This document shows, in pieces, positions 3,351 through 35,782 of a stretch of 35,782 bases of DNA. The position numbers and the translations under genes are program-made. Source of the stretch: Candidatus Moraniibacteriota bacterium (GTDB taxonomy: Bacteria; Patescibacteriota; Minisyncoccia; Moranbacterales; UBA2206); the NCBI GenBank assembly GCA_037137555.1, contig JBAXKA010000003.1, forward strand, positions 1 through 35,782, read 5' to 3'. How positions within the stretch are numbered: the stretch's first letter is position 1; each line of letters starts with the position of its first letter. The notes beneath the pieces are model-generated. The model ran no database searches and was not told where the DNA came from. It saw nothing but the letters and a program-made list of their open reading frames with translations.

Positions 3351-3755
3351 ATGCTCAACAAAAAAATTCATTCCCCAAATACGCTAACAATTTGCTATAA
3401 ATTATTGCATGACAGTTTGTTTATGCTAATTATTTTTTTCACACTAACCCTCATCACCGAAGCCGTTCTTCCTGGCACTATTATTTCGCATATTGGTTTT
3501 TCCAAAATAATTATTGCGATGCTTCTGAATATTTTTATCCTAAAAATACTGGAAAAAAAAATCACACCAGATCAAGTTGATAAAAATATTTGTCCAAAAA
3601 ATAATAATCTTAAAAAAATCATCATCCCCTTTTCCGCTCTTGGCGCACTGCTCATTTTCAACAGCCAACTAGGCATGAATATTTTTTTAAATTTATTTTT
3701 ACTATTAATTTGTGCGATTTTGGGCTATTTAAGTTATTGGATTTTGTTTGATTAG
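3351..3755 (+). CDS. Small integral membrane protein (4 predicted TM), hypothetical
   Basis: 134-aa hydrophobic ORF. Its last 161 nt plus about 90 nt downstream are duplicated at 5698-5947. Confidence 0.55.
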   Translation: MLNKKIHSPNTLTICYKLLHDSLFMLIIFFTLTLITEAVLPGTIISHIGFSKIIIAMLLNIFILKILEKKITPDQVDKNICPKNNNLKKIIIPFSALGALLIFNSQLGMNIFLNLFLLLICAILGYLSYWILFD

Positions 3756-3844
3756 TTTTTGTTTTTTTGTTATAGTTTGAGTGTGGTTAAGTCGTGCAAA
3801 ATAGCTGAAAACATTTTGGATATAAACGCATTTTGGCGAAATGC
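3595..3844 (+). repeat. Direct repeat copy 1 (about 250 bp): 3' end of the 134-aa gene plus downstream attI-like relic
   Basis: Matches 5698-5947 at a constant offset of 2103 nt. I found no mismatches in the first ~220 nt. Three mismatches cluster at 3814-3825 and the copies diverge completely after GGCGAAA (3841/5944). Confidence 0.95.
3776..3841 (+). other. Relic of the integron Pc/attI region (attI-like site without recombinase gene)
   Basis: TTTGAGTGTGGTTAAGTC (3776-93) resembles TTTGAGTATAATTAAATC (30943-60). CAAAATAGC resembles CAAAAATAGC. CTGAAAACATTTTGGATATAAACG (3805-28) matches CTGAAAACACTTCGGATATAAACG (31002-25) at 22/24. It is followed by TTTTGGCGAAA where attI has GTTATCTGAAA. 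A second copy lies at 5879-5944. Confidence 0.6.
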
Positions 3845-3923
3845 TATGCGCTTCGCTGTGAAAATGGTTTATTTATAAGGGGAAATGAGCTACTATGCAA
3901 TTATTAAACTAAATTAAAAAAAT

Positions 3924-4526
3924 ATGAAAGGACTTATTTACATAATAACAACGGCCGTTTCTGGTTTAATTAAAATAGGACAAACTGGCACGGGTAATTA
4001 TCAGGAGCGAATGCGTAATCTTGAGGCGAATGGCTACTATAATGTTTCTGGTCTTAAAAGATTTTTTGCGATCGAACTTGAAGATTACAACGATAAAGAA
4101 AATCTTTTAAAGGAAATTTTTAATAAACATCAAGTTGGGAACAGTGAATTATTTGCTCTTGATTATGATTTAGTGAGACAGCTTTTATTGTCATTCGAAG
4201 GCAAGGTGGTATATCCCAAAGATATAAACAAAGAAAAAGAATTTGATGAGGTTTCGAAAGCGAGAGAACAAGGGGTGCGGTTTAGTTTTTATAAAAAAGG
4301 TATCGGGAACGGAGAAGAAATTGTTTTTATAGCTGACAAAGAAATTACTGCGAAAGTAGTTGGCGAGCGCGAAGTAGAATATGGTGAACAAATTTGGAAA
4401 CTTGCACCATTAACATACAAAATATATGAGCAAAAGGGCGGATTAAATGAGAGCAAAGCATATCAAGGAGCCGCTTATTGGCAATATAAAAGCAAAAGAC
4501 TGAGAGATTTGCCTGATATTAATTGA
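3924..4526 (+). CDS. T5orf172 / GIY-YIG-superfamily domain protein with an uncharacterised C-terminal domain
   Basis: The N-terminus MKGLIYIITT..GLIKIGQTG..YQERMRNLE..NSELF fits the T5orf172 (MUG113) GIY-YIG-like pattern. The C-terminal ~90 aa ends in YQGAAYWQYKSKRLRDL, possibly DUF4357-like; this is from memory and unverified. Confidence 0.65.
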   Translation: MKGLIYIITTAVSGLIKIGQTGTGNYQERMRNLEANGYYNVSGLKRFFAIELEDYNDKENLLKEIFNKHQVGNSELFALDYDLVRQLLLSFEGKVVYPKDINKEKEFDEVSKAREQGVRFSFYKKGIGNGEEIVFIADKEITAKVVGEREVEYGEQIWKLAPLTYKIYEQKGGLNESKAYQGAAYWQYKSKRLRDLPDIN

Positions 4527-4531
4527 AAAAT

Positions 4532-4616
4532 ATGACGCAATCAAAAGGCTTAATTTAGGAGTTTTCAAGGCATTTTTATTAAAAATGACGCAATTGGCTT
4601 GAAATAATGACGCAAT
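4532..4616 (+). promoter_or_regulatory. Three direct copies of ATGACGCAAT upstream of / overlapping the Fic gene start (candidate operator)
   Basis: Exact 10-mers at 4532-4541, 4585-4594 and 4607-4616, each preceded by A-rich sequence. They lie in the 80-nt T5orf172-Fic intergenic region. Confidence 0.45.
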
Positions 4617-5671
4617 GGTGCTATGATGTATTTATGAATAAAAGACAACAACAAATCATAGAATTTGCCAAGAAAAATCATTCTTTCCAAAATAAAGAAT
4701 TGGTTACTTTTTTTGATGATAAATATTCCAGAGAAACAATTACCAGAGACCTGTCTTTTTTATGCACACAAAATTTTTTGCAAAAAAACGGTGCTGGAGC
4801 TTTTGTAGTTTATTCGCTGTCCGACGCATATGGAAGCTTAAAAGAAGTTGATATTCAAAAATATTTTAAAACTCCATATTTAAAAAGAGATGTAAAGGAA
4901 AGTTTTAATTTTGAAATCTTTTCCATATTAAAAGATGATATTTTTACAGTGGAAGAAAAAGAAAAGCTGGAAAACTTACAAAGAAAATTTATTAAAAATT
5001 TCTCCAAATACGATAGCCAAACGCTTATCAATAAAGAATTTGAAAGAATAATGATTGAGTTTTCTTGGAAGTCATCGGCAATAGAGGGGAATACCTACTC
5101 ACTCCTAGGCACAGAAGCCTTGATTAAAAATAATGTCATCGGGGAAGGCAAGACCAAGGAAGAAACTCAAATGATTCTCAATCATAAAGACGCTTTTAAT
5201 GAGGCGATCCAAAATAGGGCGCGTTTTATTAAATTACGATTGGCTGATGTTGAATATATCCATTCTGTTTTAACAAAAAAACTTGGAATAACCAAAAATA
5301 TTAGAAAAGCCGGGGTTGGCATTACTGGCACAAAGTATAAACCCCTGGATAATGAATCGCAAATCAAAGAAGCATTGCAAAATATGGTTGATTTTATCAA
5401 CAAAAAGGAATCATTTTTTGAAAAGGCCTTTTTGATTTCTATCCTTATCGCCTATATCCAGATTTTTGAAGATGGAAATAAAAGGACTTCGCGGATGATT
5501 TCCAATGCTATTTTATTAGCACATCATTCAATCCCACTTTCTTACAGAATCGTAGATGTTGAAGAGTACAAAAAGGCGATTATATTATTTTATGAGCTAA
5601 ATAATCTTGCTTATTTCAAACAGATATTTATAGAGCAATTCGAAGATGCGGTCAATAATTATTTCAAATAA
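4607..5671 (+). CDS. Fic/DOC-family protein with N-terminal winged-HTH and a degenerate Fic motif (His replaced by Gln)
   Basis: The Fic motif position reads IQIFEDGNKRTSR, versus canonical HxFx(D/E)GNGRxxR. An inhibitory-helix-like motif SSAIEGN ([ST]xxxE[GN]) lies upstream. The N-terminal ~60 aa look DeoR/wHTH-like. The likely true start is the ATG at 4634 (MNKRQQQ...). Confidence 0.75.
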   Translation: MTQWCYDVFMNKRQQQIIEFAKKNHSFQNKELVTFFDDKYSRETITRDLSFLCTQNFLQKNGAGAFVVYSLSDAYGSLKEVDIQKYFKTPYLKRDVKESFNFEIFSILKDDIFTVEEKEKLENLQRKFIKNFSKYDSQTLINKEFERIMIEFSWKSSAIEGNTYSLLGTEALIKNNVIGEGKTKEETQMILNHKDAFNEAIQNRARFIKLRLADVEYIHSVLTKKLGITKNIRKAGVGITGTKYKPLDNESQIKEALQNMVDFINKKESFFEKAFLISILIAYIQIFEDGNKRTSRMISNAILLAHHSIPLSYRIVDVEEYKKAIILFYELNNLAYFKQIFIEQFEDAVNNYFK

Positions 5672-5697: not shown

Positions 5698-5947
5698 CAA
5701 AAAATAATAATCTTAAAAAAATCATCATCCCCTTTTCCGCTCTTGGCGCACTGCTCATTTTCAACAGCCAACTAGGCATGAATATTTTTTTAAATTTATT
5801 TTTACTATTAATTTGTGCGATTTTGGGCTATTTAAGTTATTGGATTTTGTTTGATTAGTTTTTGTTTTTTTGTTATAGTTTGAGTGTGGTTAAGTCGTGC
5901 AAAATAGCTGAAAACATGTTGGGTATAGACGCATTTTGGCGAAAGGC
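5698..5947 (+). repeat. Direct repeat copy 2: orphan 3' fragment of the 134-aa membrane-protein gene plus attI-like relic
   Basis: Duplicate of 3595-3844. It has no upstream in-frame start: the ATG at 5679 reads a different frame and stops at 5706-5708, so the coding part is a gene remnant. Confidence 0.9.
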
Positions 5948-6077
5948 ATTTTTTACTTTTGGGCAATCGCCCATCTCAAAAAAAGAATTTGAATTTTGTT
6001 TTTTTATTAATTTATAAAGGGGTATGAGGTGTTTTCTCCGCTACGAAAACGATTTAATTATATTGTAAAATATAGAT

Positions 6078-7670
6078 ATGAATACAACGACCATTAAACA
6101 ATTGTTGACCATAAAAGAGGCTTGCGAATGGGCAAGCTCGTTTTTAGGTCGTGCAATCAGTGAAACAAATATTTCTTACTTAATACAATATGGAAAAGTA
6201 AAAAAATATGGTGAAAATGGCAGTACTCAAATTCATATTAATGATTTAAAAAATTATTATCAATCATTTAACGGAACAAGAGAGGTTGAATGGAAAAAAA
6301 AGCTAGGCGATGACTTAAATTGGAGTTTGTCATTTGATAATTTAAGAGAAACAGATACCACAAAACATGTTCATAGGCTGCACCCATACAAAGGTAAATT
6401 TATTCCTCAATTAGTTGAGTATTTTATAGATGAACATACTGATGATTTTAAAAAACAATCCTTTTTCAAAAAAGGCGATATTGTATTAGATCCTTTTTCT
6501 GGTTCAGGGACAACTCTTGTGCAAGCAAATGAACTTGGTATTCATGCAATAGGTGTAGATATTTCTCGATTTAATTGCATGATAACCGATACAAAACTAC
6601 TAGACTATAACTTAAATTTATTAATACAAGACATCAAAACTATAAACTTAGCGATTACTAAATTTGAAACTGACGCAAAAATACAAGAATTTGAAAAAGA
6701 ATTATATTTTGAATTATCAAAATTCAACAATGAACATTTTCCATCCCCAGATTATAAAAGAAAAATTTATAAAAAAGAAATCGATGAAAATAAATATTCG
6801 GCTACTAAAGAAAAAGAATTTTTATCAATCTATAATAAATTAGTAAAAAAGTATAAAATTGAATTAAAACAAGAAAAAAATAACTCTTTTCTTGATAAAT
6901 GGTACATAAAAAATATACGAAAAGAGATTGATTTTGCATTTGAACAAATCAAGCAAATAAAAAATGAAAAAAATAAAAGAGTTTTGGCTGTGATATTAAG
7001 TAGAACAATTCGCTCTTGTAGGGCAACTACTCATTCTGATTTAGCTACATTAAAAGAACCTCAGACAACTACTTATTATTGTTGGAAACATAAAAAAATT
7101 TGCAAACCTCTTTTTTCTATTAAATATTGGTTTAGTCGTTATGCAAACGACACTATTGCTAGAATTAAAGAATTTCAAAAATTAAAAAATGGTGTACATT
7201 GGGCATCGATTACTGGCGATTCCAGAACCGTTGATATAGCAAAAGAAATTCAATTAAGAAATAAAGAATTTTATAATCTTATAAAAAACCAAAAGATTAA
7301 AGGGATATTTTCTTCACCGCCATATGTCGGACAAATAGATTATCATGAGCAACATGCTTATGCATATGATCTTTTCAGTTTTGAAAGAAAAGATGAGTTA
7401 GAAATTGGTCCATTATACAAAGGACAGGGAATGGAAGCCAAAAAATCGTATGTCGAAGGTATATCGCAAGTTTTGCTAAATTCAAAAAAATACTTTGCAA
7501 ATAATTATGATGTATTTTTGGTAGCAAATGATAAATGGAATTTATATCCTACAATAGCCGAGAAAGCTGGCATGAAAATTGTCAATCAATACAAACGACC
7601 AGTATTAAATCGCACAGAAAGAGATAAAAATCCTTATTCAGAAATAATATTTCATTTAAAAAATAATTAA
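6078..7670 (+). CDS. SAM-dependent DNA methyltransferase (N6-adenine or N4-cytosine), type II R-M
   Basis: HPYKGKFIPQLV...VLDPFSGSGTT (motifs X/I, aa ~101-146), GVDIS (motif II), and SSPPY (motif IV, aa ~411-415). A ~200-aa Lys/Glu-rich insert lies between them. The N-terminal ~45 aa look HTH-like. The gene stops 1 nt before the next ORF. Confidence 0.85.
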   Translation: MNTTTIKQLLTIKEACEWASSFLGRAISETNISYLIQYGKVKKYGENGSTQIHINDLKNYYQSFNGTREVEWKKKLGDDLNWSLSFDNLRETDTTKHVHRLHPYKGKFIPQLVEYFIDEHTDDFKKQSFFKKGDIVLDPFSGSGTTLVQANELGIHAIGVDISRFNCMITDTKLLDYNLNLLIQDIKTINLAITKFETDAKIQEFEKELYFELSKFNNEHFPSPDYKRKIYKKEIDENKYSATKEKEFLSIYNKLVKKYKIELKQEKNNSFLDKWYIKNIRKEIDFAFEQIKQIKNEKNKRVLAVILSRTIRSCRATTHSDLATLKEPQTTTYYCWKHKKICKPLFSIKYWFSRYANDTIARIKEFQKLKNGVHWASITGDSRTVDIAKEIQLRNKEFYNLIKNQKIKGIFSSPPYVGQIDYHEQHAYAYDLFSFERKDELEIGPLYKGQGMEAKKSYVEGISQVLLNSKKYFANNYDVFLVANDKWNLYPTIAEKAGMKIVNQYKRPVLNRTERDKNPYSEIIFHLKNN

Positions 7671-7671: not shown

Positions 7672-8466
7672 ATGGCATTATCAAAAAATTTACAACAGAA
7701 GGTTTATAAATTTATAAAGGACAAAGTCCTAAAGAAAATTGACGCATACAATTTGAGCGATGAGGATTCATCAAAACCTTTTCAATATGCTCTTTTTACA
7801 AAAAAGGGTTACTTGGCAAAAGGATTTATTCATGGATGCGAAACAGCACTTGGGAACTGGCACGAAACCATAGCAAAAATTATTGCTACTGAAAATTTTG
7901 CAACTGCAAATAAATTACAAGGGCAAAACAAGTTGAAAGGAAAAATCACAAGAGAAGCACAAAGAACATTAGAAAATATTTTAAGTGATCTTGATAGTGT
8001 TAAAAGGGAGCCGAATCATAAGTCAGAGTCAGAAGAAATTTTCAATGCTAGCCAAAACCTCAAAAAAACAGAGGCCAGAATACAAACTGTTGATCTCTAT
8101 CTAGAAACAAAGGATGGTGAAGAAATTTATTTTGAAATAAAAGGGCCTAAGCCAAATAAAAACGAAATGAGAGCAGCAAAAAGAGACTTGCTAGAAATAT
8201 ATGCAATAAGATCAACAGAAAGCAAGAAAGTCAAAATTTATCTAGGTATGTATTATAACCCCTATTATCCTGAAGATTACCAAAGATGGACATGTTTAAA
8301 ATTCTTTGATGAAGGAAATGACTTTCTTATTGGCAAAGATTTTTGGGACTTCTTAGGAGGAAGTGGTGCTTACGAGGAACTGATTGATATTTATGAAAAA
8401 GTTGGAGAAGAAATAAGACCAGTGCTAGACCAAAAGTTCAAGGACATCGCAAAGAGTCAAAACTAA
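7672..8466 (+). CDS. Type II restriction endonuclease, PD-(D/E)xK fold (possibly TdeIII-like)
   Basis: 264 aa, translationally adjacent to the MTase. VDLYLETKDGEEIYFEIKGPKPN gives a D...ExK nuclease motif. The TdeIII family assignment is from memory only. Confidence 0.65.
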   Translation: MALSKNLQQKVYKFIKDKVLKKIDAYNLSDEDSSKPFQYALFTKKGYLAKGFIHGCETALGNWHETIAKIIATENFATANKLQGQNKLKGKITREAQRTLENILSDLDSVKREPNHKSESEEIFNASQNLKKTEARIQTVDLYLETKDGEEIYFEIKGPKPNKNEMRAAKRDLLEIYAIRSTESKKVKIYLGMYYNPYYPEDYQRWTCLKFFDEGNDFLIGKDFWDFLGGSGAYEELIDIYEKVGEEIRPVLDQKFKDIAKSQN

Positions 8467-8472
8467 TAAGAA

Positions 8473-8527
8473 GTTTTGGTTTTTGGCCATTCACACCCTC
8501 AATTCCCCTCTGCCAAAAATCCAAAAC
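8473..8527 (+). other. Stem-loop with conserved C-rich 24-nt loop immediately after the REase stop
   Basis: GTTTTGGTTTTTGGC (8473-87) pairs with GCCAAAAATCCAAAAC (8512-27), giving 15 bp with one bulge. The loop is CATTCACACCCTCAATTCCCCTCT. A homologue with a covarying stem lies at 32229-32281. Confidence 0.7.
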
Positions 8528-8574
8528 AAAAAAACTTATCTAATCTATTTAAAATAAAAAATAAATCAACCAAT

Positions 8575-9690
8575 TCAATCCTTCAAATATTCCAGCGTTT
8601 CTTTCGCACATTTTTCCCAAGAAAACTTTTTGATTTGTTCGGTGCCTTTTTTGATCATAGTTTCTCGTAAGTTTTTATCTTTCAAGACCAGTTCGATTTT
8701 TTCCGCCAAATCAACGGGACTTTTTTCTTGAAAATATAATGGCGCATCGCCACCCACTTCACCAAGGCTAGAATTTAATGCACAAATCAGTGGCACACGA
8801 GAAGCAAGAATTTCCAACACAGGCAAGCCAAAACCTTCATAAAGCGATGGATAAACATACACGCTGGCACCACGAACCAAATGACCCAAATCAGAAAAAG
8901 TTAATCGACCGGGAGTTAGAATATCTTTTTTAAAACGACTTTCTGCAATTTGTTTAAACACATCATCAGAAAGCCATGCCCGCTCCCCTGCAATAACTAA
9001 TTTAATTTTTGATTTAGTTTTTTCTTTGAAAATATCAAAAGCCGAAACCAAAACGCCCAAATTTTTTCTTGGCTGAATCGCACCGGCGTATAAAATATAC
9101 TCACCAGAAATGTTCATTTTATTTTTCACCGCCTGCTCAATCGAAAAATCTCGTTCAATAGAAAAAACTTCTGCGTCAAAACCATGATAAATCACTTTGA
9201 TTTTATGCTCACTTACATTTGGATAAAATTTTAAAATATCTTTTTTGGTTGATTCGGAAATTGCAATAATTTTGTCCGCTTTTGTAAATGCCCATTTTCC
9301 TAAAAGATTTAATTTAAACAAATCTTTTTTGGGAAAATATTCCGGAAAATATTTATAGGCCAAATCATGTGCCGTTACGACTGTTTTTATTTTTGTCGCA
9401 CAAAACACCGGAATATTATGCATCGGCATCCAAAGCACATCCGGTTTATCTTTTCGCAACTCATTGGCTAGCCAAAGTTGAGTCCAAAATACAGGAAAGT
9501 TTTTTTGTTTAATTTTATAGTTGGGAAAATTCGGCGGAGCAAGTTCAGGATTAAATTTATTTTTATGATACAACAAAAAATCACTAGAGTTATCTAGTTT
9601 TCCAAAATATTTCAACATATTCTGAATATAAACACGAGTTCCGTCAATACGACTCGCGTCCAAATCAGCAACTTGAATAGCAATTTTCAT
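8575..9690 (-). CDS. Glycosyltransferase family 4 (GT-B)
   Basis: 371 aa. C-terminal signature YPSLYEGFGLPVLEILASRVPLI, typical of GT4/GT1 retaining transferases. Confidence 0.85.
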   Translation of the reverse strand: MKIAIQVADLDASRIDGTRVYIQNMLKYFGKLDNSSDFLLYHKNKFNPELAPPNFPNYKIKQKNFPVFWTQLWLANELRKDKPDVLWMPMHNIPVFCATKIKTVVTAHDLAYKYFPEYFPKKDLFKLNLLGKWAFTKADKIIAISESTKKDILKFYPNVSEHKIKVIYHGFDAEVFSIERDFSIEQAVKNKMNISGEYILYAGAIQPRKNLGVLVSAFDIFKEKTKSKIKLVIAGERAWLSDDVFKQIAESRFKKDILTPGRLTFSDLGHLVRGASVYVYPSLYEGFGLPVLEILASRVPLICALNSSLGEVGGDAPLYFQEKSPVDLAEKIELVLKDKNLRETMIKKGTEQIKKFSWEKCAKETLEYLKD

Positions 9691-30101: not shown

Positions 30102-30917
30102 TTATTCTAGTGGACTTTTAATTTTCCTTAACATCGGATTAGTCACTTTCGTATAAATCTGGGTTGTTCTAATGTTAGCATGCCCTAGCAATTCTTGCAC
30201 GAAACGAACATCTACGCCATTTTCTAACAAATGCGTTGCAAAACTATGACGCAAAGAATGAAATGTCGCCTCTTTTTTAATTCCCGCTTTTTTGAGTGCA
30301 GTTTCAAAAACTTTTTGTGCAGTTCTTTCGGTTAATTTTCCACCGCGTTCACTAGCGAAAATATAATCATTGAGTTTTTTGTTTGCAATTAATTTTTCAA
30401 CATCACCAATTAGTTTTTCCGGCAAAAGTGTTATCCGATCTTTATTTCTTTTAGCGTCTTTAATGTGAATCGTCAATTCCGCCAAACAAACATCTTTAAC
30501 TTTCAAATTAATAATCTCACTCACCCGCAAACCACCAGAATAAGCCAAAGCAATCATCAAATTATGTTTTTTATTATTAATTACTAGCAATATTTTTTCA
30601 ATTTCAGCGCGAGAAAGCACAATCGGTAACTTGCTTGGAGTCTTGGCAAAGCGCACATCAATTTTTCCCCGAAATTTCAAAACATTCCAGCAGAAGAAGT
30701 TAATCGCTTGCAAATTCTGATTAGACATCTGCGATGATTTCCCCTCATCTATTTTTGACAAAATATACTGCTTAATAAAATCCACATCAACAATTTCAAA
30801 ATTATTCTGTTTAGCTTTTAAATAATTAGTAACACAATAAGTATATGCACTGATAGTTTTTGGACTATATTTTCTCAATCGCAATTCATCATTTAGTTTT
30901 TTTAAGTAAAAATCCAT
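30102..30917 (-). CDS. Tyrosine site-specific recombinase, integron-integrase-like but lacking the IntI-specific insertion
   Basis: 271 aa. R (GGLRVSE), HSLRHSFATH (HxxR) and LLGHANIRTTQIYTKV (H, Y). SAM-like N-terminal domain (YSPKTISAYTYCVTNYL) and a ...KSPLE C-terminus. It is divergent from the cassette array. Confidence 0.85.
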   Translation of the reverse strand: MDFYLKKLNDELRLRKYSPKTISAYTYCVTNYLKAKQNNFEIVDVDFIKQYILSKIDEGKSSQMSNQNLQAINFFCWNVLKFRGKIDVRFAKTPSKLPIVLSRAEIEKILLVINNKKHNLMIALAYSGGLRVSEIINLKVKDVCLAELTIHIKDAKRNKDRITLLPEKLIGDVEKLIANKKLNDYIFASERGGKLTERTAQKVFETALKKAGIKKEATFHSLRHSFATHLLENGVDVRFVQELLGHANIRTTQIYTKVTNPMLRKIKSPLE

Positions 30918-30925: not shown

Positions 30926-30954
30926 TTGACACATTATTACAATTTGAGTATAAT
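30926..30954 (+). promoter_or_regulatory. Pc-like cassette promoter, perfect sigma70 consensus
   Basis: TTGACA (30926-31), a 17-nt spacer, then TATAAT (30949-54). It points into attI and the cassette array. Confidence 0.65.
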
Positions 30955-30957
30955 TAA

Positions 30958-30986
30958 ATCATACAGAATATTCACAAAAATAGCAA
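30958..30986 (-). promoter_or_regulatory. Candidate recombinase promoter (Pint-like), face-to-face with Pc
   Basis: On the minus strand: TTGCTA (30986-81), a 17-nt spacer, then TATGAT (30963-58), about 40 nt upstream of the recombinase ATG (30917). Confidence 0.45.
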
Positions 30987-30998
30987 TATTATGCATGC

Positions 30999-31037
30999 TA
31001 TCTGAAAACACTTCGGATATAAACGAGTTATCTGAAA
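30999..31037 (+). other. attI-like site: two direct TATCTGAAA boxes; inferred crossover G|TT at 31027/31028
   Basis: TATCTGAAA occurs at 30999-31007 and at 31029-31037. The second box is part of GTTATCTG (31027-34), the exact reverse complement of cassette 1's inverse core CAGATAAC (32349-56). Confidence 0.65.
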
Positions 31038-31139
31038 TTTGCTTTTTCTTTTCGCCTATCGGCGACGCATTTCTGTAATGAATTAATTGAATTTATTTAT
31101 TTTAAAAGGGGGTATAAGGAAGAAAACTTTATTAATATT

Positions 31140-32222
31140 TTGAATACAAATATGGAAAAATTCTCACCAGAATTAGTACAAGCGCAAACTGAGGCTCTTG
31201 ATATTCAAAAAAAAGCAAAAGAGGAGAAAGAAAAGAAAGGAGAAGTCGGAAGTTTAAGCAACGAAGATTATGAGAATGCTTGCCTGCCCCGCGTTGAAAG
31301 TTATGAGAAATTTTTGGAGGAAAATACAAAACTAGAATCCTTCGTTGATCACATTGAGCAAAACTCCCCAAATGGCGAAATAAATATATACAGTCCTGAA
31401 TTTTGGTATTCCTATCAGAAATTTATTGAAACTGTTTGGACAAAAGAAGGATTGGCACAATTAAACAGTAAGGACTACGAGGATTTTGAAGATTATAGAC
31501 ATGATTCCAATAAAATGCGAAAACCGATTGATCATGTTTTTTCTAACGGTGCATCTATTTTCAGGGGTAACGAACATTTCAATAGAATAAAACAGCGTTC
31601 TCTTTTGAATACTTTAAATAAAAATGGCATATCTACTGAAAACCTGCAAACCATAAAAGATTCATTTGCACATTATTATCGTAGCGATGGCGGCTATGGA
31701 CCAAAAAATATTAGCAAAAGTGCCTTGGAGCAATCGTACTTACAACGAATTGAGGCAGTCAAAAAATTGAACCAAAGTCAAGAACTATCGAAAATAACCG
31801 AAATCTGGGATGAATACGGATTACTTGATTCTCTATCTAGCGAGGTCAGCACATGTTTTGGCGGGCGCAACGAAACGCCAATTATAAGAAAGATAAGAGA
31901 GAAGCACAAAAATTCTTTTAAGGAAAAAAAGTTTAAAGAAATTGAGTTAGCTATAGTTGAAACAATTACCTTAAACGGACTAAAGGATAGCTTTTTATTA
32001 ACAAAAGAGTATGACAAATTAATTGAAATAGAGAAAAAAGACCCAAATTTAATAAAATCAGCTATTGCTGGAACATCCGCCCTCACCTTTGTTGTACTTA
32101 CTTCCAATATAGTCTCAACAGTAGTTGGAGACGCTTACGCATACACCCCAATAGGTGCAGTTCCAAATATTGATAGTATTTCTCGCGAGATGAAAGAGTT
32201 TTGTTGCGACGTAGAAGAGTAA
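31140..32222 (+). CDS. Cassette 1 ORF: hypothetical protein with C-terminal TM helix
   Basis: 360-aa ORF (TTG in the track; first ATG at 31152, MEKFSPEL...). The N-terminus is charged and the C-terminus has a hydrophobic segment, SAIAGTSALTFVVLTSNIVSTVVG. No motif recognised. Confidence 0.6.
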   Translation: MNTNMEKFSPELVQAQTEALDIQKKAKEEKEKKGEVGSLSNEDYENACLPRVESYEKFLEENTKLESFVDHIEQNSPNGEINIYSPEFWYSYQKFIETVWTKEGLAQLNSKDYEDFEDYRHDSNKMRKPIDHVFSNGASIFRGNEHFNRIKQRSLLNTLNKNGISTENLQTIKDSFAHYYRSDGGYGPKNISKSALEQSYLQRIEAVKKLNQSQELSKITEIWDEYGLLDSLSSEVSTCFGGRNETPIIRKIREKHKNSFKEKKFKEIELAIVETITLNGLKDSFLLTKEYDKLIEIEKKDPNLIKSAIAGTSALTFVVLTSNIVSTVVGDAYAYTPIGAVPNIDSISREMKEFCCDVEE

Positions 32223-32228
32223 TAAGGA

Positions 32229-32281
32229 GTCTTTGTTTCTGGGCATTCACCCCTTAATCCCCTCTGCCCAAAAACAAAGAC
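32229..32281 (+). other. Stem-loop with conserved C-rich loop after the cassette 1 ORF (homologue of 8473-8527)
   Basis: GTCTTTGTTTCTGGGC (32229-44) pairs with GCCCAAAAACAAAGAC (32266-81) at 15/16 bp. The loop is ATTCACCCCTTAATCCCCTCT. The stem sequence differs from the 8.5-kb copy while pairing is kept. Confidence 0.7.
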
Positions 32282-32348
32282 AAAATTCAATTAATTCATT
32301 ACAGAAATACTATTCCTCTGCTGAGGAATGAAAAGAAAAAGCAAACAT

Positions 32349-32437
32349 CAGATAACACGGCATATCTGGTTACGGCTTTTTACAAAAGCCTCCACCCAAA
32401 TTGCTACGCAACTTCAGATATGCCGAAACGTTAGCTG
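32349..32437 (+). other. attC-like site 1 (89 bp)
   Basis: R'' CAGATAAC; P1 GGCATATCTG (32359-68) pairs with CAGATATGCC (32415-24); P2 GGCTTTT/AAAAGCC; conserved CCACCCAAATT (32392-402); R' GTTAGCTG (32430-37). Confidence 0.75.
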
Positions 32438-33815
32438 AAATAAATTTTTATCTTTGTAGTAATTTCAAGTTCTGTGCGTTGATCAAAGACGAAAATTTGA
32501 TTTTTTAAATTAAAAGTTTTTTCCGCTTCGCGGATTATTTGGGGGCAATTTTATTTTTTATTTTAAATACAATATGATGAACAAACAAATCAACACCGCT
32601 TTGGCGATTGCGGTAATAATCATAATCGCTGGAATTGCGGGCGGAACAATTTATACAAACATTGCGAATAACAATCCGGCCACAATTATTCCTGTAATCA
32701 ATAAAACTCAACAAAACAAAGTTATTAGCAAATCTTCAGATGATATTGCTATAGGCAAGTCATGTGATGCTCGTAATTTAAAATCCTACAACGGTGGCGG
32801 AGAAATTGCAGCCACAAAAGGTTTACAATGTTATATGTACGACGACCTTTCTGACAGAATGCTTAACAATGGCAAGTGGATTTATCCGAGCGGCAAGGAA
32901 ACGGTTCGCAAGGGCGTTTGGGTTTATCCGAATCATATGAGCATACCGATATTCTTAGCCCAAGAAAAACCTTCCTTGTTTGATACGGTTTCAATAAATG
33001 ACCTTACACAAAACTGGAAGTTATACGATAATTCCAACGGTAATTATAGTTTTAAGTTTCCGAAACAATGGGAAGTAAAAAAAGACGCTTCAAATGCAAA
33101 CCAATTGACAATAGAAAAAATAAATACGACCGAAGCAAATACTATATTCGCAACAATCACATATTATCCGAATGCTAAATTCGAAACTACAGATGATTAT
33201 CAAAATATTAACGAAGCTCCAGATGATTGGCTTGTGCCTGACAATTCTACTGACACATTCATCCTTACTCGCCATTTTGATTTAAATGGCGCTACTGCAC
33301 TCTTAGTCGAAAGAATGAATAATTTTGACTTGGGTGGAAGTTCTTATGGCGAAACAATTTTTGTCACTAAGCCAAATTCATATTTTACGATTGAATATAC
33401 AAAATATCAGGACGCCGATATTGATTTGCCAGTAGAGATGTTAATTAAAACCTTACGGTTTAAATAACATCTTATAAAAAAATAAGGAAGAAAAATAAAA
33501 AATAAAATTGCCCCCAAATAATCGTTTTGCCATTCGGCAAAACAAAAACTTTTAATTTAAAAAATCAAATTTTCTTTACGATAAGCAAAGTTTATACTGT
33601 TAAAGACGAAGATAAAAATTTACATCAGCTAACACGGAGTAAACGGTTCAGAAATTTTTCAATATTAATAATTAGAGGAGTAAAAAATTTCTTCACCCAA
33701 ATTCGTTTTCCTTAGTCAGTGCCATTATCAAGATTAGTGCATTTAATATAATTCCGTTAAGATAACAAAGTTTAATCAATTAAGTCGGAAAACGAACTTC
33801 GTTTACTCCGATACG
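32431..33815 (+). mobile_element. Gene cassette 2
   Basis: Opens TTAGCTG and ends at G of GTTATGTG. The IR arms are 32430-32564 and 33492-33633, including perfect 31-bp (32491-521/33544-74) and 32-bp (32533-64/33492-523) blocks. Confidence 0.75.
32574..33467 (+). CDS. Cassette 2 ORF: secreted/membrane-anchored hypothetical protein
   Basis: 297 aa. N-terminal signal-anchor (ALAIAVIIIIAGIAGGTIY) and then a soluble domain. No motif recognised. Confidence 0.65.
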   Translation: MMNKQINTALAIAVIIIIAGIAGGTIYTNIANNNPATIIPVINKTQQNKVISKSSDDIAIGKSCDARNLKSYNGGGEIAATKGLQCYMYDDLSDRMLNNGKWIYPSGKETVRKGVWVYPNHMSIPIFLAQEKPSLFDTVSINDLTQNWKLYDNSNGNYSFKFPKQWEVKKDASNANQLTIEKINTTEANTIFATITYYPNAKFETTDDYQNINEAPDDWLVPDNSTDTFILTRHFDLNGATALLVERMNNFDLGGSSYGETIFVTKPNSYFTIEYTKYQDADIDLPVEMLIKTLRFK

Positions 33816-33822
33816 TTATGTG
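33626..33822 (+). other. attC-like site 2 (197 bp)
   Basis: R'' CAGCTAAC; P1 GGAGTAAACG (33636-45) pairs with CGTTTACTCC (33800-09); P2 33650-59/33683-92; conserved TCACCCAAATT (33693-703); P3 CGTTTTCC (33704-11) pairs with GGAAAACG (33787-94); R' GTTATGTG (33815-22). Confidence 0.75.
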
Positions 33823-34957
33823 AAATACCCAGAAATTTCTTTATTCATTTTTAAGATTTTTTTGGCGAATGCACGGGTCGAATAACTCAGATATAAATAA
33901 TTAAAATTAATTTTAAAAAACAAAGTATGAAAAACAAAAGAGGAAACGTTGCCGTAATTGCGCTTATCATCGTTATTGTGGCAATTACAACAGGCGTAAT
34001 CACTTGGCTTATCGCGACAAAAACACAAGCGCCAGTTCAGCAGGCAGTTGTAACTCAACCTGCGCCAGTTGCAAAAACACAGCCAGTAGTTCAATCTACC
34101 ACGCCAACTGCACAGTCAACACCAGCTAGCGATGTGAGTAAACAGGGCATTAAAGAATATAAATCAGGGAATACATTCAGTTTTAATTATCCTTCTCAAG
34201 TTTGTGATCCTGAAAGTAAAAAATGTTATCCGATTGTGTTGTCTGAAGATAAATCAGTAATCACACTAAATGCTTCAGAAGGTGGTTTATTTAAGATTTA
34301 TTATGGTACAAATATTACTGATGATAAATCAGCTAATAATTTCTTACAAACCACATTGAAGAACGGACTATGCAAGATTGATACAACTGAAACTAATATG
34401 CTACAAGGAACAACGATTAAAAATGTTTTCTTAGATGGAGGTTGTTCTCTTTATGGTCCTGCATATGAAAAATATTCTTCTGCTCATCCGGATGCAATTG
34501 GCTTAGCTGGAAAAAATAGGGCTTATTGGGCAACTGATAGCAAGGAAATGATTGTCTATGTTCTTGGTCAGGGAGGTGGTTGTTCATTTCTTGATTGTGA
34601 ATTGGAAGGAAAAATATCAGAAAGTATTAACCTTGGTGGAATCAATGTATTTGATAAATCTATGAGTGGAATTTAAAAACAGTGTCGCAAAAGAAATAAT
34701 TTTTTGAATTCATAAATGCAATTCGCCAAAAAATACATTAAGGAGGAAGAAATTTCTGGGTACATCACATAACAGCCCATATCTGGCTACAGGAAATTGA
34801 CGCTATTGAAAACAATATTGAGTGTCAATTTCCCTCCGCCCAAATTTTCATCCCTTAGTTTTGATGAAGGTTTAGGTGGAGTTCATCAAAAAATATATCA
34901 GCCTATAATCAAAGTCTATCCTATAAAACGGGATGAAAACTTCAGATATGGGCAACG
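33816..34957 (+). mobile_element. Gene cassette 3
   Basis: Opens TTATGTG and ends at G of GTTAGGCG. The IR arms are 33815-33872 and 34718-34773, with a perfect 16-bp block at 33826-41/34747-62. Confidence 0.75.
33927..34676 (+). CDS. Cassette 3 ORF: membrane-anchored extracytoplasmic protein with P/T/Q/V-rich linker
   Basis: 249 aa. N-terminal TM (VAVIALIIVIVAITTGVITWLIA), the linker QAPVQQAVVTQPAPVAKTQPVVQSTTPTAQSTPA, and a Cys-containing globular domain. Confidence 0.65.
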   Translation: MKNKRGNVAVIALIIVIVAITTGVITWLIATKTQAPVQQAVVTQPAPVAKTQPVVQSTTPTAQSTPASDVSKQGIKEYKSGNTFSFNYPSQVCDPESKKCYPIVLSEDKSVITLNASEGGLFKIYYGTNITDDKSANNFLQTTLKNGLCKIDTTETNMLQGTTIKNVFLDGGCSLYGPAYEKYSSAHPDAIGLAGKNRAYWATDSKEMIVYVLGQGGGCSFLDCELEGKISESINLGGINVFDKSMSGI

Positions 34958-34964
34958 TTAGGCG
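34766..34964 (+). other. attC-like site 3 (199 bp)
   Basis: R'' CACATAAC; P1 CCCATATCTG (34776-85) pairs with CAGATATGGG (34943-52); P2 AGGAAATTGAC (34791-801) pairs with GTCAATTTCC (34824-33); conserved CCGCCCAAATT (34836-46); P3 TTTCATCCC (34846-54) pairs with GGGATGAAA (34930-38); R' GTTAGGCG (34957-64). Confidence 0.75.
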
Positions 34965-35072
34965 AAAAAACTAAAAATTTCCTCTCTATTTTTGAAAAGA
35001 ATTTTTGGCAATTTTGCTCGGTCGATAACTCGGTATATAATTAAGATAAGTTTAACAAATTAAAAAAAAATT

Positions 35073-35627
35073 ATGAAAAAAGTATTAGCAATAAGTTCGG
35101 TGTTGCTTGGAGTCGTCTTTTTGGCTGGGTGTGGTCAACAGCCGGTGAGTCAAACGCAGCCAACAACGCCAGCTCCCATAGTGAAACAGCCAGCAACTAC
35201 TCCTCCGGTCGCAACTCAACCAGCGCCAACAACTCCAGCCGTCACTCAAAATTACATTGAAGTAAAAGAATTGGGATTCAAGATTCCCGTTGATGCCTCA
35301 AGCGCAAATGAGATAACTTACAAAATTACACAAGTCACAAAAGACAGTCCAACTCCTGGCGTGTACTTTTCAACCAAGGAGCTAAACTCAATGAGTAAGG
35401 ATTGCGAAGAAGGATCGATTGGGGCAATTTCAAAAGTGTCTGGCAAAGTATCCACAGATCCTAATTCAGAAAATTTCATGCCAGGAGAAATAAAACAACT
35501 CCAAGGTTTTTCACTGGTATTTCAGACTCCTCAAGCCCCTTGTCACTCCGGCGACAACTCTCTGGATAGAAAATTTATGCAAATCCTTGAAACTGGATTT
35601 AAAAATGCGGTTCTACTTGGTCAGTAA
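35073..35627 (+). CDS. Cassette 4 ORF: lipoprotein with P/T/Q-rich linker
   Basis: 184 aa. Signal peptide with lipobox (VFLAGC|GQQ), the linker QPTTPAPIVKQPATTPPVATQPAPTTPAV, and then a globular domain. Confidence 0.7.
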   Translation: MKKVLAISSVLLGVVFLAGCGQQPVSQTQPTTPAPIVKQPATTPPVATQPAPTTPAVTQNYIEVKELGFKIPVDASSANEITYKITQVTKDSPTPGVYFSTKELNSMSKDCEEGSIGAISKVSGKVSTDPNSENFMPGEIKQLQGFSLVFQTPQAPCHSGDNSLDRKFMQILETGFKNAVLLGQ

Positions 35628-35674
35628 ATTGCCAAAAATTCTTTATCATTAAGAATGGAAATTTTTAGTTTCAT

Positions 35675-35782
35675 CGCCTAACAACGCATATCTGGCTACA
35701 GGAAAATCACTCAAATATATTCAAAGGATGTGATTTTCCCTCCGCCCAAATTTTCATCCCTTAGTTTTGATGAAGGTTTAGG
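35675..35782 (+). other. attC-like site 4 (partial)
   Basis: R'' CGCCTAAC (35675-82), the reverse complement of the cassette 4 opening GTTAGGCG; P1 5' strand GCATATCTG; P2 AGGAAAATCAC/GTGATTTTCC (covaries with site 3). The rest is near-identical to site 3 up to the window edge. Confidence 0.7.

What the first reader, a model, noticed from the sequence alone, without database searches (positions are those of the whole stretch)
3776..3841. A recombinase-less relic of the integron Pc/attI region sits in front of the defence genes, in two copies
Seen: the sequence downstream of the 134-aa gene is collinear with the recombinase-proximal region of the integron.
- TTTGAGTGTGGTTAAGTC (3776-93) vs TTTGAGTATAATTAAATC (30943-60, which contains the Pc -10) matches at 14/18.
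- CAAAATAGC vs CAAAAATAGC.
- CTGAAAACATTTTGGATATAAACG (3805-28) vs CTGAAAACACTTCGGATATAAACG (31002-25) matches at 22/24.
Both loci have two boxes ending in GAAA about 29 nt apart: AGCTGAAA and TTGGCGAAA here, versus TATCTGAAA twice in attI. AGCTGAAA and GGCGAAA are also the openings of cassettes 2 and 4. The second copy (5879-5944) precedes the R-M genes. The two 250-bp repeats stop matching exactly after the second box, which is where cassette sequence would begin.
Inference: this is a second attI-type insertion site, analogous to integrase-less cassette clusters (CALIN). It could be serviced in trans by the recombinase 27 kb away, and it has captured defence modules.
Basis: partly seen in the sequence, partly recalled or inferred. 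Interest (0 to 1): 0.78.

Follow-up and report, generated by a model that had tools for sequence, protein, structure and literature searches.

The report
Fossil gene-capture site beside defence genes
A decayed second copy of the docking-and-promoter region of this bacterium's gene-capture system sits 27 kb from the working copy, in front of two anti-virus gene sets that were once mobile cassettes; the relic is real but has probably lost the ability to capture genes.

Summary
3759-3853 and 5862-5956 are homologous to the recombinase-proximal region at 30926-31050. A covariance model built only from 26 other CPR/Patescibacteria genomes scores them 35.3 bits (E 7e-4) and 25.6 bits (E 0.046), against 18 bits for the next-best site.

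The copies lie in a 4.8-kb lineage-specific insertion (3756-8574) between a conserved membrane-protein gene (p134) and a glycosyltransferase gene. These two genes abut in eight related loci. One close relative (L085) has the same p134-attI' junction in a less decayed state.

Both cargo modules are defence genes: PDC-S57/SoFic-like and a type II R-M. They carry the leader and trailer typical of this lineage's cassettes. A 93%-identical R-M occurs elsewhere as an intact cassette with its own attC.

The relic has no attC sites, so it is not a CALIN. It lacks inverted repeat IR1 and has lost family-invariant bases, including the crossover G of GTT. The 247-nt repeat includes part of p134 and runs 10 nt past the crossover point, so it was not made by canonical site-specific capture.

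Best reading: a fossil of the platform's proximal end with stranded cassettes, now at most a promoter/leader.

Separately, the platform recombinase is Xer-like and lacks the IntI-specific domain.

The parts
3351..3755 (+). p134: conserved 134-aa membrane-protein gene, last gene of a p600-p448-p134 operon. It is the left flank of the insertion.
   Evidence: ORF. Homologues at 40-87% identity, always followed within 0-6 nt (274 nt in L086) by a convergent gene in L086-L097.
3595..3841 (+). Direct repeat, copy 1: the last 161 nt of p134 plus attI' up to the cassette-side arm.
   Evidence: 247 nt, with 3 mismatches to 5698-5944.
3759..3853 (+). attI' copy 1: relic of the recombinase-proximal promoter/attachment region. 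Elements: -10-like TGTTATAGT at 3768-3776; arm A' TAGCTGAA at 3802-3809; arm B' TTTGGATA at 3815-3822; spacer TAAACGCAT; arm C' TTTGGCGAAAT at 3832-3842.
   Evidence: CM R1 35.3 bits, E 7e-4; nhmmer E 2e-4; 0 of 2000 shuffles reach the observed score; promoter-like TTGATT-17-TATAGT with TG.
3843..3923 (+). Shortened cassette-type leader in front of the T5orf172 gene.
   Evidence: Matches L005/L009 first elements and the proximal leader of the L098 GmrSD cassette.
3924..4526 (+). T5orf172-domain protein (PADLOC candidate defence family PDC-S57).
   Evidence: Pfam PF10544; PDC-S57 179 bits.
4607..5671 (+). HTH-Fic protein (SoFic-like / PDC-S04).
   Evidence: Pfam Fic + HTH_DeoR; SoFic 67.9 bits.
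5698..5944 (+). Direct repeat, copy 2: a startless 3' fragment of p134 (5698-5858) plus attI'.
   Evidence: tblastn detects the p134 C-terminal 52 aa a second time in L001.
5862..5956 (+). attI' copy 2. It is more decayed, with three extra substitutions in arm B and the spacer (positions equivalent to 3815, 3820, 3825).
   Evidence: CM 25.6 bits, E 0.046. Mismatch clustering P = 0.0045.
5935..6077 (+). Full cassette-type leader of the R-M module. It is colinear with genuine cassette starts.
   Evidence: Alignments to L006 (score 151), L013 and L049 and L105.
6078..7670 (+). Type II DNA methyltransferase.
   Evidence: Pfam N6_N4_Mtase; PADLOC MTase_II 796 bits. Homologues at 80-93% identity, mostly on 2-3 kb contigs.
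7672..8466 (+). TdeIII-family type II restriction endonuclease.
   Evidence: Pfam RE_TdeIII 197 bits; PADLOC REase_II.
8464..8559 (+). Cassette-type trailer, cut off about 30 nt before the point where relatives have the attC.
   Evidence: Matches 32220-32285 and trailers in L006, L012, L013, L098, L100. The intact version with attC is in L105.
8575..9690 (-). GT4 glycosyltransferase gene: right flank of the insertion. It abuts p134 in relatives.
30102..30917 (-). Platform recombinase: a Xer-like tyrosine recombinase of 271 aa without the IntI-specific domain.
30926..31050 (+). Functional-type attI. Elements: promoter boxes; IR1; arm A TATCTGAA; arm B TTCGGATA; crossover G|TT at 31026/31027; arm C TTATCTGAAAT.
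   Evidence: CM 104.6 bits; family alignment; covariation in IR1/IR2.
31027..35782 (+). Cassette array with attC sites at 32346-32436, 33623-33821, 34763-34966 and 35672 to the window end.
   Evidence: attC1 folds at -21.4 kcal/mol, z -6.3.

Best explanation
The feature is a fossil of the proximal end of this lineage's cassette-capture platform. It comprises the outward promoter, the recombinase-side half of the attachment site, and the first cassette or cassettes. It lies inside a 4.8-kb insertion between the stop codons of p134 and GT4, in a cell-envelope glycosylation locus.

Shown:
- It is homologous to the attI family.
- It is an insertion relative to related genomes.
- A sister strain has the same p134-attI' junction with IR1 still present.
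- The two cargo modules carry the leader and trailer of genuine cassettes.
- The R-M module exists elsewhere as an intact cassette with its own attC.
- The relic has no attC, no IR1, no G|TT, and altered invariant arm bases.

Inferred:
- The site is no longer a substrate for the recombinase 27 kb away.
- The two cargo modules are 'stranded' cassettes that can no longer be excised.
- The only likely remaining role of the relic is as a promoter/5' leader. TTGATT-17-TG-TATAGT sits at the position of the family-conserved -10 box and would drive the defence genes.
- The 247-nt duplication arose by homologous or illegitimate recombination that stacked two alternative cargo alleles of the same locus. 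Possible routes are Campbell-type integration of a 2.1-kb circle, unequal crossing-over, or homology-facilitated illegitimate recombination. The right-hand junction lies in the shared cassette start GAAA(T/G)GC. It did not arise by attI x attC capture.
- Decay may have been favoured. A live attI' in direct orientation with attI would allow deletion of about 27 kb that includes clpB and lepA.
For: Homology.

Family architecture: searches show one conserved region abutting the recombinase ATG in 40 CPR loci. No second copy was found in 1.03 Mb plus 0.15 Mb of related DNA.

Insertion: p134 is followed directly by GT4 in L087-L091 and, after a 274-nt repeat-rich spacer, in L086. It is followed by recJ in L092-L097. 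L085 shows p134 followed by TTTTTATTTTTTTGTTATAGTTTAAGTGTGATTAAGTCATGCAGAATATTCGCAAAAATAGCAACATCA and then the contig end.

Cassette origin of the cargo:
- The leader after copy 2 aligns with the first-cassette leader at the true attI of L006, where the cargo is HaeIII R-M plus Shedu.
- It also aligns with cassette starts right after G|TT in L013, L049 and L105.
- The trailer is shared with the window's own cassette 1 and with cassettes in L006, L012, L013, L098 and L100.
- L105 carries the R-M (MTase 93% aa identity) with matching terminal inverted repeats and a full attC.

Decay:
- 30-nt IR1 deletion.
- Invariant T76, C89, A101 and G102 are changed.
- Copy 2 has 3 further substitutions, all within 11 nt of arm B and the spacer (P = 0.0045).
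- The IR2 hairpin is no longer better than shuffles.
- No attC half-sites.
- No recombinase remnant.

Defence content. Promoter-like site.

The relic is about 70% identical both to the genome's own attI and to those of its nearest relatives, so it is an old paralogue and not a recent copy.
Against: - No experiment shows that the site is dead. Tyrosine recombinases tolerate some core variation, and secondary-site recombination is known for IntI1 (own knowledge).
- Two different cassette-type modules sit behind two copies. That pattern is also what repeated capture at a live site would suggest.
- The contig of the sister strain (L085) breaks 69 nt after p134, just as contigs break at true attI sites. 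This is compatible with strain-variable content there.
- How a fragment carrying the recombinase-side half of attI reached this junction is unexplained.
- The 220-nt exact part of the repeat exceeds the assemblers' k-mer size, so the tandem order rests on the assemblers' repeat resolution. Two independent assemblies do agree.
- Promoter activity is only a consensus match, in an AT-rich region where such matches are not enriched.
Confidence: 0.6

Rival explanations
1. This is the first reader's reading: a still-active satellite attachment site. The recombinase at 30102-30917 acts in trans on attI' and has inserted the two defence modules there as cassettes.
For: - True homology to attI with all three arm-like boxes in the right order and spacing, apart from 1 extra nt.
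- The cargo behind both copies starts colinearly with genuine cassettes.
- The two copies carry different modules.
- The sister strain keeps the junction and its contig breaks there.
- Cassettes of this pool are demonstrably mobile between genomes: 85-97% nt identity of attC/trailers where the recombinases are only 62-74% identical.
Against: - The G of G|TT and three other positions invariant in 26/26 attI sites are changed. Copy 2 is worse.
- IR1 is absent.
- No attC follows either module, so neither could have arrived, or could leave, as a canonical cassette in its present form.
- Both copies share the same cassette-side arm.
- The repeat includes 161 nt of p134, which capture at attI' cannot produce.
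- The R-M cassette start in the window (TTTGGCGAAAGGCAT) carries the arm of the other module, not its own arm (TTATGTGAAATGCAT in L105 and L013).
Confidence: 0.2
2. It is a shared regulatory module, not a recombination relic. The similarity would reflect a portable promoter/operator or 5'-UTR element used both for the cassette array and for defence genes. The inverted repeat in the 24-mer would be an operator or RNA hairpin.
For: - The conserved region contains a family-conserved extended -10 box, which is retained as TGTTATAGT in both copies.
- IR1 and IR2 show covariation across genomes.
- The relic lies 150-200 nt upstream of the first gene of each module.
Against: - In 40 related loci the region occurs once, always abutting the recombinase gene and ending at a cassette junction. 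It is never found in front of other genes.
- The inverted repeats, which would be the regulatory parts, are exactly what has decayed or been deleted in the copies.
- No Rfam family matches.
- This rival overlaps with the best explanation, which also allows a residual promoter role.
Confidence: 0.12
3. It is an assembly artefact or a mixed-population artefact. The true structures would be p134-attI'-R-M on the chromosome, plus a separate 2.1-kb circle or a second strain carrying attI'-T5orf172-Fic. On this reading the tandem arrangement is a mis-join through a 220-nt exact repeat.
For: - The exact part of the repeat (3595-3814) is longer than the k-mers used (k141 appears in the ENA contig name).
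- A circle of 2103 nt and the tandem form give the same de Bruijn graph (inference).
Against: - Two independent assemblies from different data sets give the same order across both repeats and both junctions: the ENA contig/window and JGI contig L001, which align over 3245 nt at near identity.
- The junction between the Fic tail and the interior of p134 must exist physically in either case.
- Even under this rival, attI' next to p134 and in front of defence genes remains real.
Confidence: 0.06

Closest known systems
Integron attI site with Pc promoter (e.g. attI1: simple site plus accessory integrase-binding repeats)
   Same: - In this family the region abuts the recombinase start codon and faces the cassettes.
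- It carries an outward promoter and three arm-like boxes: A (inverted), B and C.
- It ends at a G|TT junction, after which sequence varies between genomes.
- The relic is homologous to it.
   Different: - The relic is 27 kb from the recombinase gene.
- It lacks G|TT, IR1 and several invariant bases.
- It is followed by cassettes without attC.
- The family's recombinase is not an IntI by the defining-domain criterion.
CALIN (cluster of attC sites lacking an integron integrase)
   Same: Cassette-derived genes with no recombinase gene nearby, plausibly a degraded piece of a platform.
   Different: A CALIN is defined by at least 2 attC sites (PMC9024848). Here there are none. Instead, the recombinase-side half of attI is present, which CALINs lack.
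Decaying sedentary chromosomal integrons (inactivated intI, eroding arrays, as described for Xanthomonas; own knowledge)
   Same: Loss of recombination competence, with retention of cassette genes that are still useful.
   Different: Here a functional-looking platform persists elsewhere in the same genome. The relic is a displaced fragment, not the platform itself decaying in place.
Defence systems carried as integron cassettes (Darracq et al. 2024, bioRxiv 10.1101/2024.07.02.601686; abstract seen)
   Same: Defence systems occur as cassettes of this lineage's arrays:
- TdeIII-type R-M in L105 and L098.
- HaeIII R-M plus Shedu in L006.
- GmrSD in L098.
   Different: - The host is a CPR bacterium.
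- The recombinase is Xer-like.
- In the window the defence cassettes are stranded outside the array.
Xer/dif systems with integrated elements (IMEX such as CTX-phi at dif; xerS next to difSL; 'Cand' subgroup of Xer-related recombinases, PMC8138268)
   Same: - The recombinase aligns end to end with XerA structures.
- It is highly conserved and syntenic across CPR genomes.
- Its site lies next to its gene.
- Use of a folded single-stranded site by Xer has a precedent in CTX-phi (own knowledge).
   Different: - The array has integron-type attC sites with R''/L''/L'/R' boxes and GTTRRRY cores.
- It holds many promoter-proximal cassettes.
- A role of the site in chromosome dimer resolution is untested.

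Membership tests
Functional integron-type attI site | Lies next to, and divergent from, the recombinase gene | tested here: not met
   The nearest recombinase gene is 30102-30917, 27 kb away. There is no recombinase remnant around 3351-3758 or 5698-5861. In 40 related loci attI always abuts the recombinase ATG.
Functional integron-type attI site | Sequence homology to the attI of the same recombinase family | tested here: met
   CM built from 26 other genomes: 35.3 bits (E 7e-4) and 25.6 bits (E 0.046), against 18 bits for background. nhmmer E 2e-4. 0 of 2000 shuffles reach the observed score.
Functional integron-type attI site | Conserved crossover core (G|TT) and conserved recombinase-arm bases | tested here: not met
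   AGTT is invariant in 26/26 sites. The relic has CATTT with 1 extra nt. Invariant T76 and C89 are also changed. Copy 2 additionally changes invariant A92 and near-invariant T87 and A97.
Functional integron-type attI site | Followed by cassettes that end in attC sites | tested here: not met
   Cassette-type leader and trailer are present. No attC half-site is found in 3756-8575 with up to 3 mismatches allowed. The trailer is truncated about 30 nt before the attC position.
Functional integron-type attI site | Recombines with attC in the presence of the recombinase | not testable with these tools
   Needs a recombination assay.
CALIN | At least two attC sites | tested here: not met
   Zero attC-like sites in the insertion. 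Definition taken from PMC9024848.
CALIN | No integron integrase nearby | tested here: met
Integron (the platform at 30102-35782) | IntI with the IntI-specific additional domain around patch III (PMC9668308) | tested here: not met
   - The protein is 271 aa.
- TIGR02249 scores 201.8 bits, below the 265 cutoff, and matches in two stretches.
- Against VchIntIA (2a3v), 14 query residues stand in for residues 185-241.
- The alignments to XerA (5hxy, 4a8e) run end to end.
Integron (the platform at 30102-35782) | Array of cassettes separated by attC sites with R''-L''/L'-R' boxes that fold as hairpins | tested here: met
   - Four R''-L'' sites against 0.02 expected by chance.
- L'-R' halves with GTTRRRY cores.
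- attC1 bottom strand folds at -21.4 kcal/mol, z -6.3.
- The same motif occurs upstream of the recombinase, in cassette orientation, in L006, L012, L013, L015, L019, L026, L028, L034, L041, L043, L046 and L049.
Integron (the platform at 30102-35782) | Cassettes are mobile between genomes | tested here: met
   - attC/leader/trailer segments are 85-97% identical to those in genomes whose recombinases are only 62-74% identical.
- Window cassette 4 is the first cassette in L034.
- The R-M cassette occurs in different contexts in L098, L100, L103 and L105.
Xer/dif chromosome-dimer resolution system | Xer-type recombinase architecture | tested here: met
   The best NCBIfam model is XerA_Arch at 210.7 bits (cutoff 220). 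Full-length alignment to XerA structures.
Xer/dif chromosome-dimer resolution system | Housekeeping gene: conserved, syntenic, single copy | tested here: inconclusive
   60-91% identity across many CPR genomes. Conserved rec-lepA-divIC-ppiC-htrA-clpB synteny in 11 loci. Copy number per genome could not be checked.
Xer/dif chromosome-dimer resolution system | Site acts as dif at the replication terminus | not testable with these tools
   No complete source genome was available. The skew profile of a 36-kb window cannot locate a terminus.
Anti-phage defence island | Cluster of known or candidate defence genes | tested here: met
   PDC-S57 179 bits, SoFic 68 bits, MTase_II 796 bits, REase_II 97 bits.

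The most novel reading that the evidence does not exclude
CPR/Patescibacteria would run an integron analogue whose recombinase is a conserved Xer-type enzyme ('Cand' subgroup) without the IntI-specific domain. attI' would be, or recently was, a satellite docking site serviced in trans. One housekeeping-like recombinase would then seed and refresh defence islets away from its own array. This would also give a living model of the Xer-to-integron transition.
Probability: 0.15. Interest if true: 0.85.

Novelty: new variant of a known kind. Interest (0 to 1): 0.55.

Why it matters
- It shows that a piece of a cassette-capture platform (promoter, half attachment site and first cassettes) can be transplanted elsewhere in a chromosome. 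There it survives as a small defence island after losing its recombination sites. Neither 'integron' nor 'CALIN' searches would report this route to defence-island formation, because it has no integrase and no attC.
- It gives an internal 'dead-site' control for the live attI of the same genome. The bases that decayed are exactly those invariant across the family, so they are candidates for recombinase contacts.
- The context may matter more than the relic. The platform is run by a Xer-like recombinase lacking the domain that defines integron integrases, yet it sits next to canonical-looking attC arrays in many CPR genomes. I found no description of this in the searchable literature.
- If the platform is confirmed experimentally, it bears on how integrons evolved from Xer systems.

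Tried and rejected
- Chance similarity: rejected.
- Common dispersed motif: the 24-mer pattern found only the same organism's attI in the metagenome collection (L004) and nothing in viral contigs. That scan missed the 3.3-kb JGI contig L001, which carries both copies, so its power for short contigs is limited. The CM found no extra copies in 1.18 Mb of related loci.
- Recombinase pseudogene next to the relic: tblastn and blastn found nothing.
- Hidden attC sites in the insertion: none.
- Known RNA family: none.
- 'GT4 lies beyond the array in relatives, so the relic marks the ancestral platform position': dropped. The GT4 hits near other recombinases are only 30-38% identical paralogues, while both rec-lepA and p134-GT4 adjacencies are ancestral.
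- Inversion between attI and a secondary site: cannot create two recombinase-side halves in the same orientation (reasoning).
- Secondary-site insertion of an excised cassette circle: would not carry the recombinase-side half of attI, and would leave an attC at the right end. Neither fits.
- Third relic at 9557-9661: 18 bits, E 1.2, inside a conserved GT4 coding region. Treated as chance.
- Weak minus-strand IR1-like hit at 3484-3533 inside p134: E 2.7, treated as chance.
- T5orf172 relatives in viral contigs: only a 19-residue match, uninformative.
Full report
**1. What the window is**

The window has about 33% G+C and no tRNA genes. Its gene content and the names attached to its closest relatives place it in the CPR/Patescibacteria, near Moranbacteria.

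A 271-aa tyrosine recombinase gene lies at 30102-30917 on the minus strand. It faces away from a genuine cassette array that starts at 31027. Four sites share R''-L'' boxes of the form CATCRNNTAAC-ANNNN-RTAWNYGG, against 0.02 expected by chance. The matching L'-R' halves end in ACGTTAKSYGAAA. Cassette starts pair with cassette ends (I7, I13, I20, I9). attC1 folds far better than shuffles: bottom strand -21.4 kcal/mol, z -6.3.

The start of cassette 1 (TTATCTGAAATTTGC...) is complementary to its end (...GCAAACATCAGATAA). This places the attI crossover at G|TT, 31026/31027.

**2.

- The degenerate 24-mer occurs only at 3805, 5908 and 31002, even with three mismatches allowed. Expected by chance: 0.01.
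- The local alignment of the relic with the attI region beats all 2000 dinucleotide shuffles: 39 against a mean of 16.5 and a maximum of 31.

For a test independent of this genome, I fetched 80 loci encoding relatives of the recombinase. The 125 nt upstream of the gene are conserved in 26 CPR genomes, which I aligned. I then built a covariance model.
- With filters off, the model finds the window's attI at 104.6 bits, copy 1 (3759-3853) at 35.3 bits (E 7e-4) and copy 2 (5862-5956) at 25.6 bits (E 0.046). The best background hit scores 18 bits.
- A sequence-only profile gives E 2e-4 for copy 1.

The two copies belong to a 247-nt direct repeat, 3595-3841 / 5698-5944, with three mismatches.

**3. 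Anatomy of the family's attI**

The consensus is TnATTTTTTTGCTATAAT...ATTATACAnAATATTCGCAAAnTTnGCAATATTnTGTAC..TATACGAAAACACTTCGTATATAAACGAG|TTAnGCGAAAT. It contains the following elements.
- An extended -10 box (TGCTAYAAT) facing the cassettes.
- IR1: TACAnAATATT-12 nt-AATATTnTGTA.
- IR2: TATNCGAA-AACAC-TTCGNATA.
- A 7-8-nt spacer.
- An invariant AG|TT.
- The variable cassette arm TTRNNNGAAAT.

IR1 and IR2 covary across genomes: 28 cells carry double changes against 13.4 in shuffles, and 0 of 500 shuffles reach the observed covariation score.

I read IR2 plus the cassette arm as three recombinase-arm-like boxes. Arm A is inverted, then come B and C. B-spacer-C resembles the L'-R' half of the array's attC sites: compare ACTTCGGATATAAACGAGTTATCTGAAA with ACTTCAGATATGCCGAAACGTTAGCTGAAA. 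That these boxes bind the recombinase is inference.

Its two 'GAAA boxes' are arms A and C.

**4. What differs in the relic**

Both copies lack model positions 39-68, which is IR1. At positions invariant in 26/26 genomes they carry the following changes.
- G instead of T76.
- T instead of C89.
- CAT instead of A101-G102, with one extra base. This destroys the G of G|TT.

Copy 2 has three more changes: T87>G, A92>G and A97>G. These are the only mismatches in the whole 247-nt repeat, and all lie within 11 nt (P = 0.0045). Copy 1 has the family state at all three.

The IR2 hairpin of the copies folds no better than shuffles.

The relic is about 70% identical both to the genome's own attI and to those of its closest relatives. 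It is therefore an old paralogue, not a recent copy.

**5. It sits in a lineage-specific insertion**

p134 (3351-3755) has homologues at 40-87% identity. Their contexts are as follows.
- In L087 (the same MAG as L005, whose recombinase is 91% identical to the window's) and in L088-L091, the operon p600-p448-p134 is followed within 0-3 nt by the convergent GT4 gene.
- In L086 it is followed by GT4 after a 274-nt repeat-rich spacer.
- In L092-L097 it is followed by recJ.

None of these loci has an attI-like sequence.

In the window, 4819 nt (3756-8574) separate the p134 stop from the GT4 stop.

One closer relative, L085 (p134 87% identical), has the same junction. After the stop codon it reads TTTTTATTTTTTTGTTATAGTTTAAGTGTGATTAAGTCATGCAGAATATTCGCAAAAATAGCAACATCA, and then the contig ends. 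It matches copy 1 at 43/48 positions (89.6%) over the part they share and still has the left half of IR1.

So the p134-attI' junction predates the split of these two strains. The IR1 deletion came later, and the duplication later still, because both copies share the deletion.

No trace of a recombinase gene lies beside the relic.

**6. The cargo is made of former cassettes**

PADLOC assigns the T5orf172 protein to candidate system PDC-S57 (179 bits), the HTH-Fic protein to SoFic/PDC-S04, and the other two genes to a type II R-M (796 and 97 bits).

*Leader.* The 143-nt leader after copy 2 aligns with several genuine cassette starts.
- The first-cassette leader at the genuine attI of L006 (score 151). 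There the cargo is a HaeIII R-M plus a Shedu nuclease.
- Cassette starts directly after G|TT in L013, L049 and L105.

*Trailer.* The trailer after the restriction gene (8464-8559) matches the trailer of the window's own cassette 1. It also matches trailers in L006, L012, L013, L098 and L100.

*Intact version.* L105 carries the closest R-M (MTase 93% aa identity) as an intact cassette. It reads G|TTATGTGAAATGCATGTTTTACTTTTGGGCTATCGCCCA, then M and R, then the trailer, then AAAGTAAAACATGCACATCACATAAC, and finally a full attC.

*The window version.* In the window the same cassette begins TTTGGCGAAAGGCATTTTTTACTTTTGGGCAATCGCCCA. That is, it carries the arm of the other module. It ends about 30 nt short of where the attC should be, running into the GT4 stop.

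*The other module.* The T5orf172-Fic module has a shortened version of the same leader family and no trailer.

No attC half-site exists in 3756-8575. Both modules are therefore cassette-derived but stranded.

**7. How the duplication arose (inference)**

The repeat begins inside p134 and ends 10 nt beyond the crossover-equivalent position. Both copies carry the same cassette arm. Canonical attI x attC capture cannot produce this.

The right junction lies where the two cassette starts share GAAA(T/G)GC.

The simplest accounts are:
- Campbell-type integration of a 2.1-kb circle.
- Unequal crossing-over.
- Homology-facilitated illegitimate recombination between two alleles of the p134-attI' locus with different cargo.

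I cannot choose among them.

The tandem order rests on repeat resolution by the assemblers, because 220 nt of the repeat are exact. Two independent assemblies agree.

How the recombinase-side half of attI first reached the p134/GT4 junction is also unexplained. Neither an inversion nor secondary-site insertion of an excised cassette fits.

**8. What it most likely does now**

The most likely role is none in recombination. At most, the relic supplies a promoter and leader for the defence genes.

TTGATT-17-TG-TATAGT lies at 3748-3776 and 5851-5879, at the position of the family-conserved -10 box. This is only a consensus match, in a region where such matches are not enriched.

A live attI' in direct orientation with attI would risk deleting about 27 kb that includes clpB and lepA. 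This could explain why the changes fall on invariant positions. That point is speculation.

**9. Comparison with known systems**

The relic resembles an integron attI/Pc region, but it fails three of four testable defining features of a functional one. It is not a CALIN.

The platform itself fails the defining feature of integron integrases (definition in PMC9668308).
- The recombinase aligns end to end with XerA structures.
- Against VchIntIA, 14 residues replace the 57-residue segment that holds the additional domain.
- The TIGR02249 match is below cutoff and split in two.

The recombinase is 60-91% identical across many CPR genomes. It is syntenic with lepA-divIC-ppiC-htrA-clpB. It probably belongs to the 'Cand' Xer-related subgroup of Smyshlyaev et al. 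(PMC8138268).

Even so, canonical-looking attC arrays lie upstream of it in at least 12 related genomes. Cassettes are shared between distant hosts. About 19 of 45 related contigs break within 100-400 nt of its start codon.

I found no paper describing this arrangement. That is a statement about the searchable library only.

**10. Verdict**

The feature is a real, recombinase-less relic of the Pc/attI region in front of cassette-derived defence genes. It is a fossil with stranded cassettes, not a CALIN-like or demonstrably serviceable site.

As a finding it is a new variant of a known kind (a degraded integron fragment) and of moderate interest. The Xer-type platform it derives from is the more remarkable object and deserves its own follow-up.

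Noticed in passing
window 30102-35782; L005-L049: The cassette platform is run by a 271-aa Xer-like recombinase without the IntI-specific domain. The enzyme is 60-91% identical across many CPR genomes and syntenic with lepA-divIC-ppiC-htrA-clpB. It has one conserved attI-like site per genome and integron-type attC arrays. About 19 of 45 related contigs break just upstream of it. I found no description of this in the searchable literature.
   Followed up: partly
window 31027-31094/32283-32359; 32430-32564/33492-33633; 33815-33841/34747-34773; 34957-34987/35652-35682: Each cassette is closed by long inverted repeats that extend far beyond the attC R boxes. The arms include 26-, 31- and 32-nt stretches that are 100% complementary. 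The two ends of a cassette could therefore pair over 80-140 nt around the ORF.
   Followed up: no
window 6020-6070 (degenerate copy 3848-3885); L006 7565-7640; L049 5855-5900; L098 2245-2300; L105 215-270: A recurrent cassette leader element. An AAAGGGG box is followed by the hairpin GGTGTTTTCTCCGCT(CCGCT)ACGAAAACGATTTATTT, whose loop varies between cassettes. It precedes unrelated genes (R-M, Shedu, GmrSD, a dehydrogenase). It has no Rfam match.
   Followed up: partly
window 8482-8515 and 32240-32272; L006 (two places), L012, L013, L098, L100, L105: A recurrent cassette trailer, GGGCATTCACCCCTnAnCCCCTCTGCCC(A)n, directly after the stop codons of unrelated cassettes. Its function is unknown.
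   Followed up: partly
L005, L009, L014, L017, L018, L021, L023, L024, L027, L032, L040 (first about 60 nt after attI): In many relatives the first element after G|TT is a gene-less hairpin: GTTnnnnnAAAT, a GC-rich loop (CGCTCGCTTCGC-like), then ATTTnnnnnAAC. It looks like an 'empty cassette' made only of the terminal inverted repeats.
   Followed up: no
L105 100-145 and 2895-2925: The intact R-M cassette sits after AAACG in the loop of a palindrome (CGCAACACTAGTG-ACTTAAACG | CACTAGTGTTGCG). The downstream junction is G|CACTAG, not G|TT. This may be a different kind of target site.
   Followed up: no
window 30958-30995 (IR1) and the family alignment A1, columns 40-76: IR1 of attI overlaps a TTGCnA-17-TATAAT promoter-like site that faces the recombinase gene. 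This suggests an operator controlling recombinase expression. It is the part deleted in the relic.
   Followed up: no
window 25795-26652: A KilA-N domain gene lies between ppiC and htrA. It is absent from the otherwise syntenic block in all related loci examined, so it is another lineage-specific insertion.
   Followed up: no
window 9557-9661: A weak attI-like match (18 bits, E 1.2) lies inside the 5' part of the GT4 gene. It includes TTATTTTTATGATACAA and ATATAAACACGAGTT. It is probably chance.
   Followed up: partly
L098 1-10272; L100 1-13593: Recombinase-less stretches of same-strand small genes carry attC-like sites and defence or toxin genes (GmrSD, HicA, Fic, anti-Pycsar-like lactamase, R-M). 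These are true CALIN-like arrays or distal parts of arrays in other CPR genomes.
   Followed up: partly
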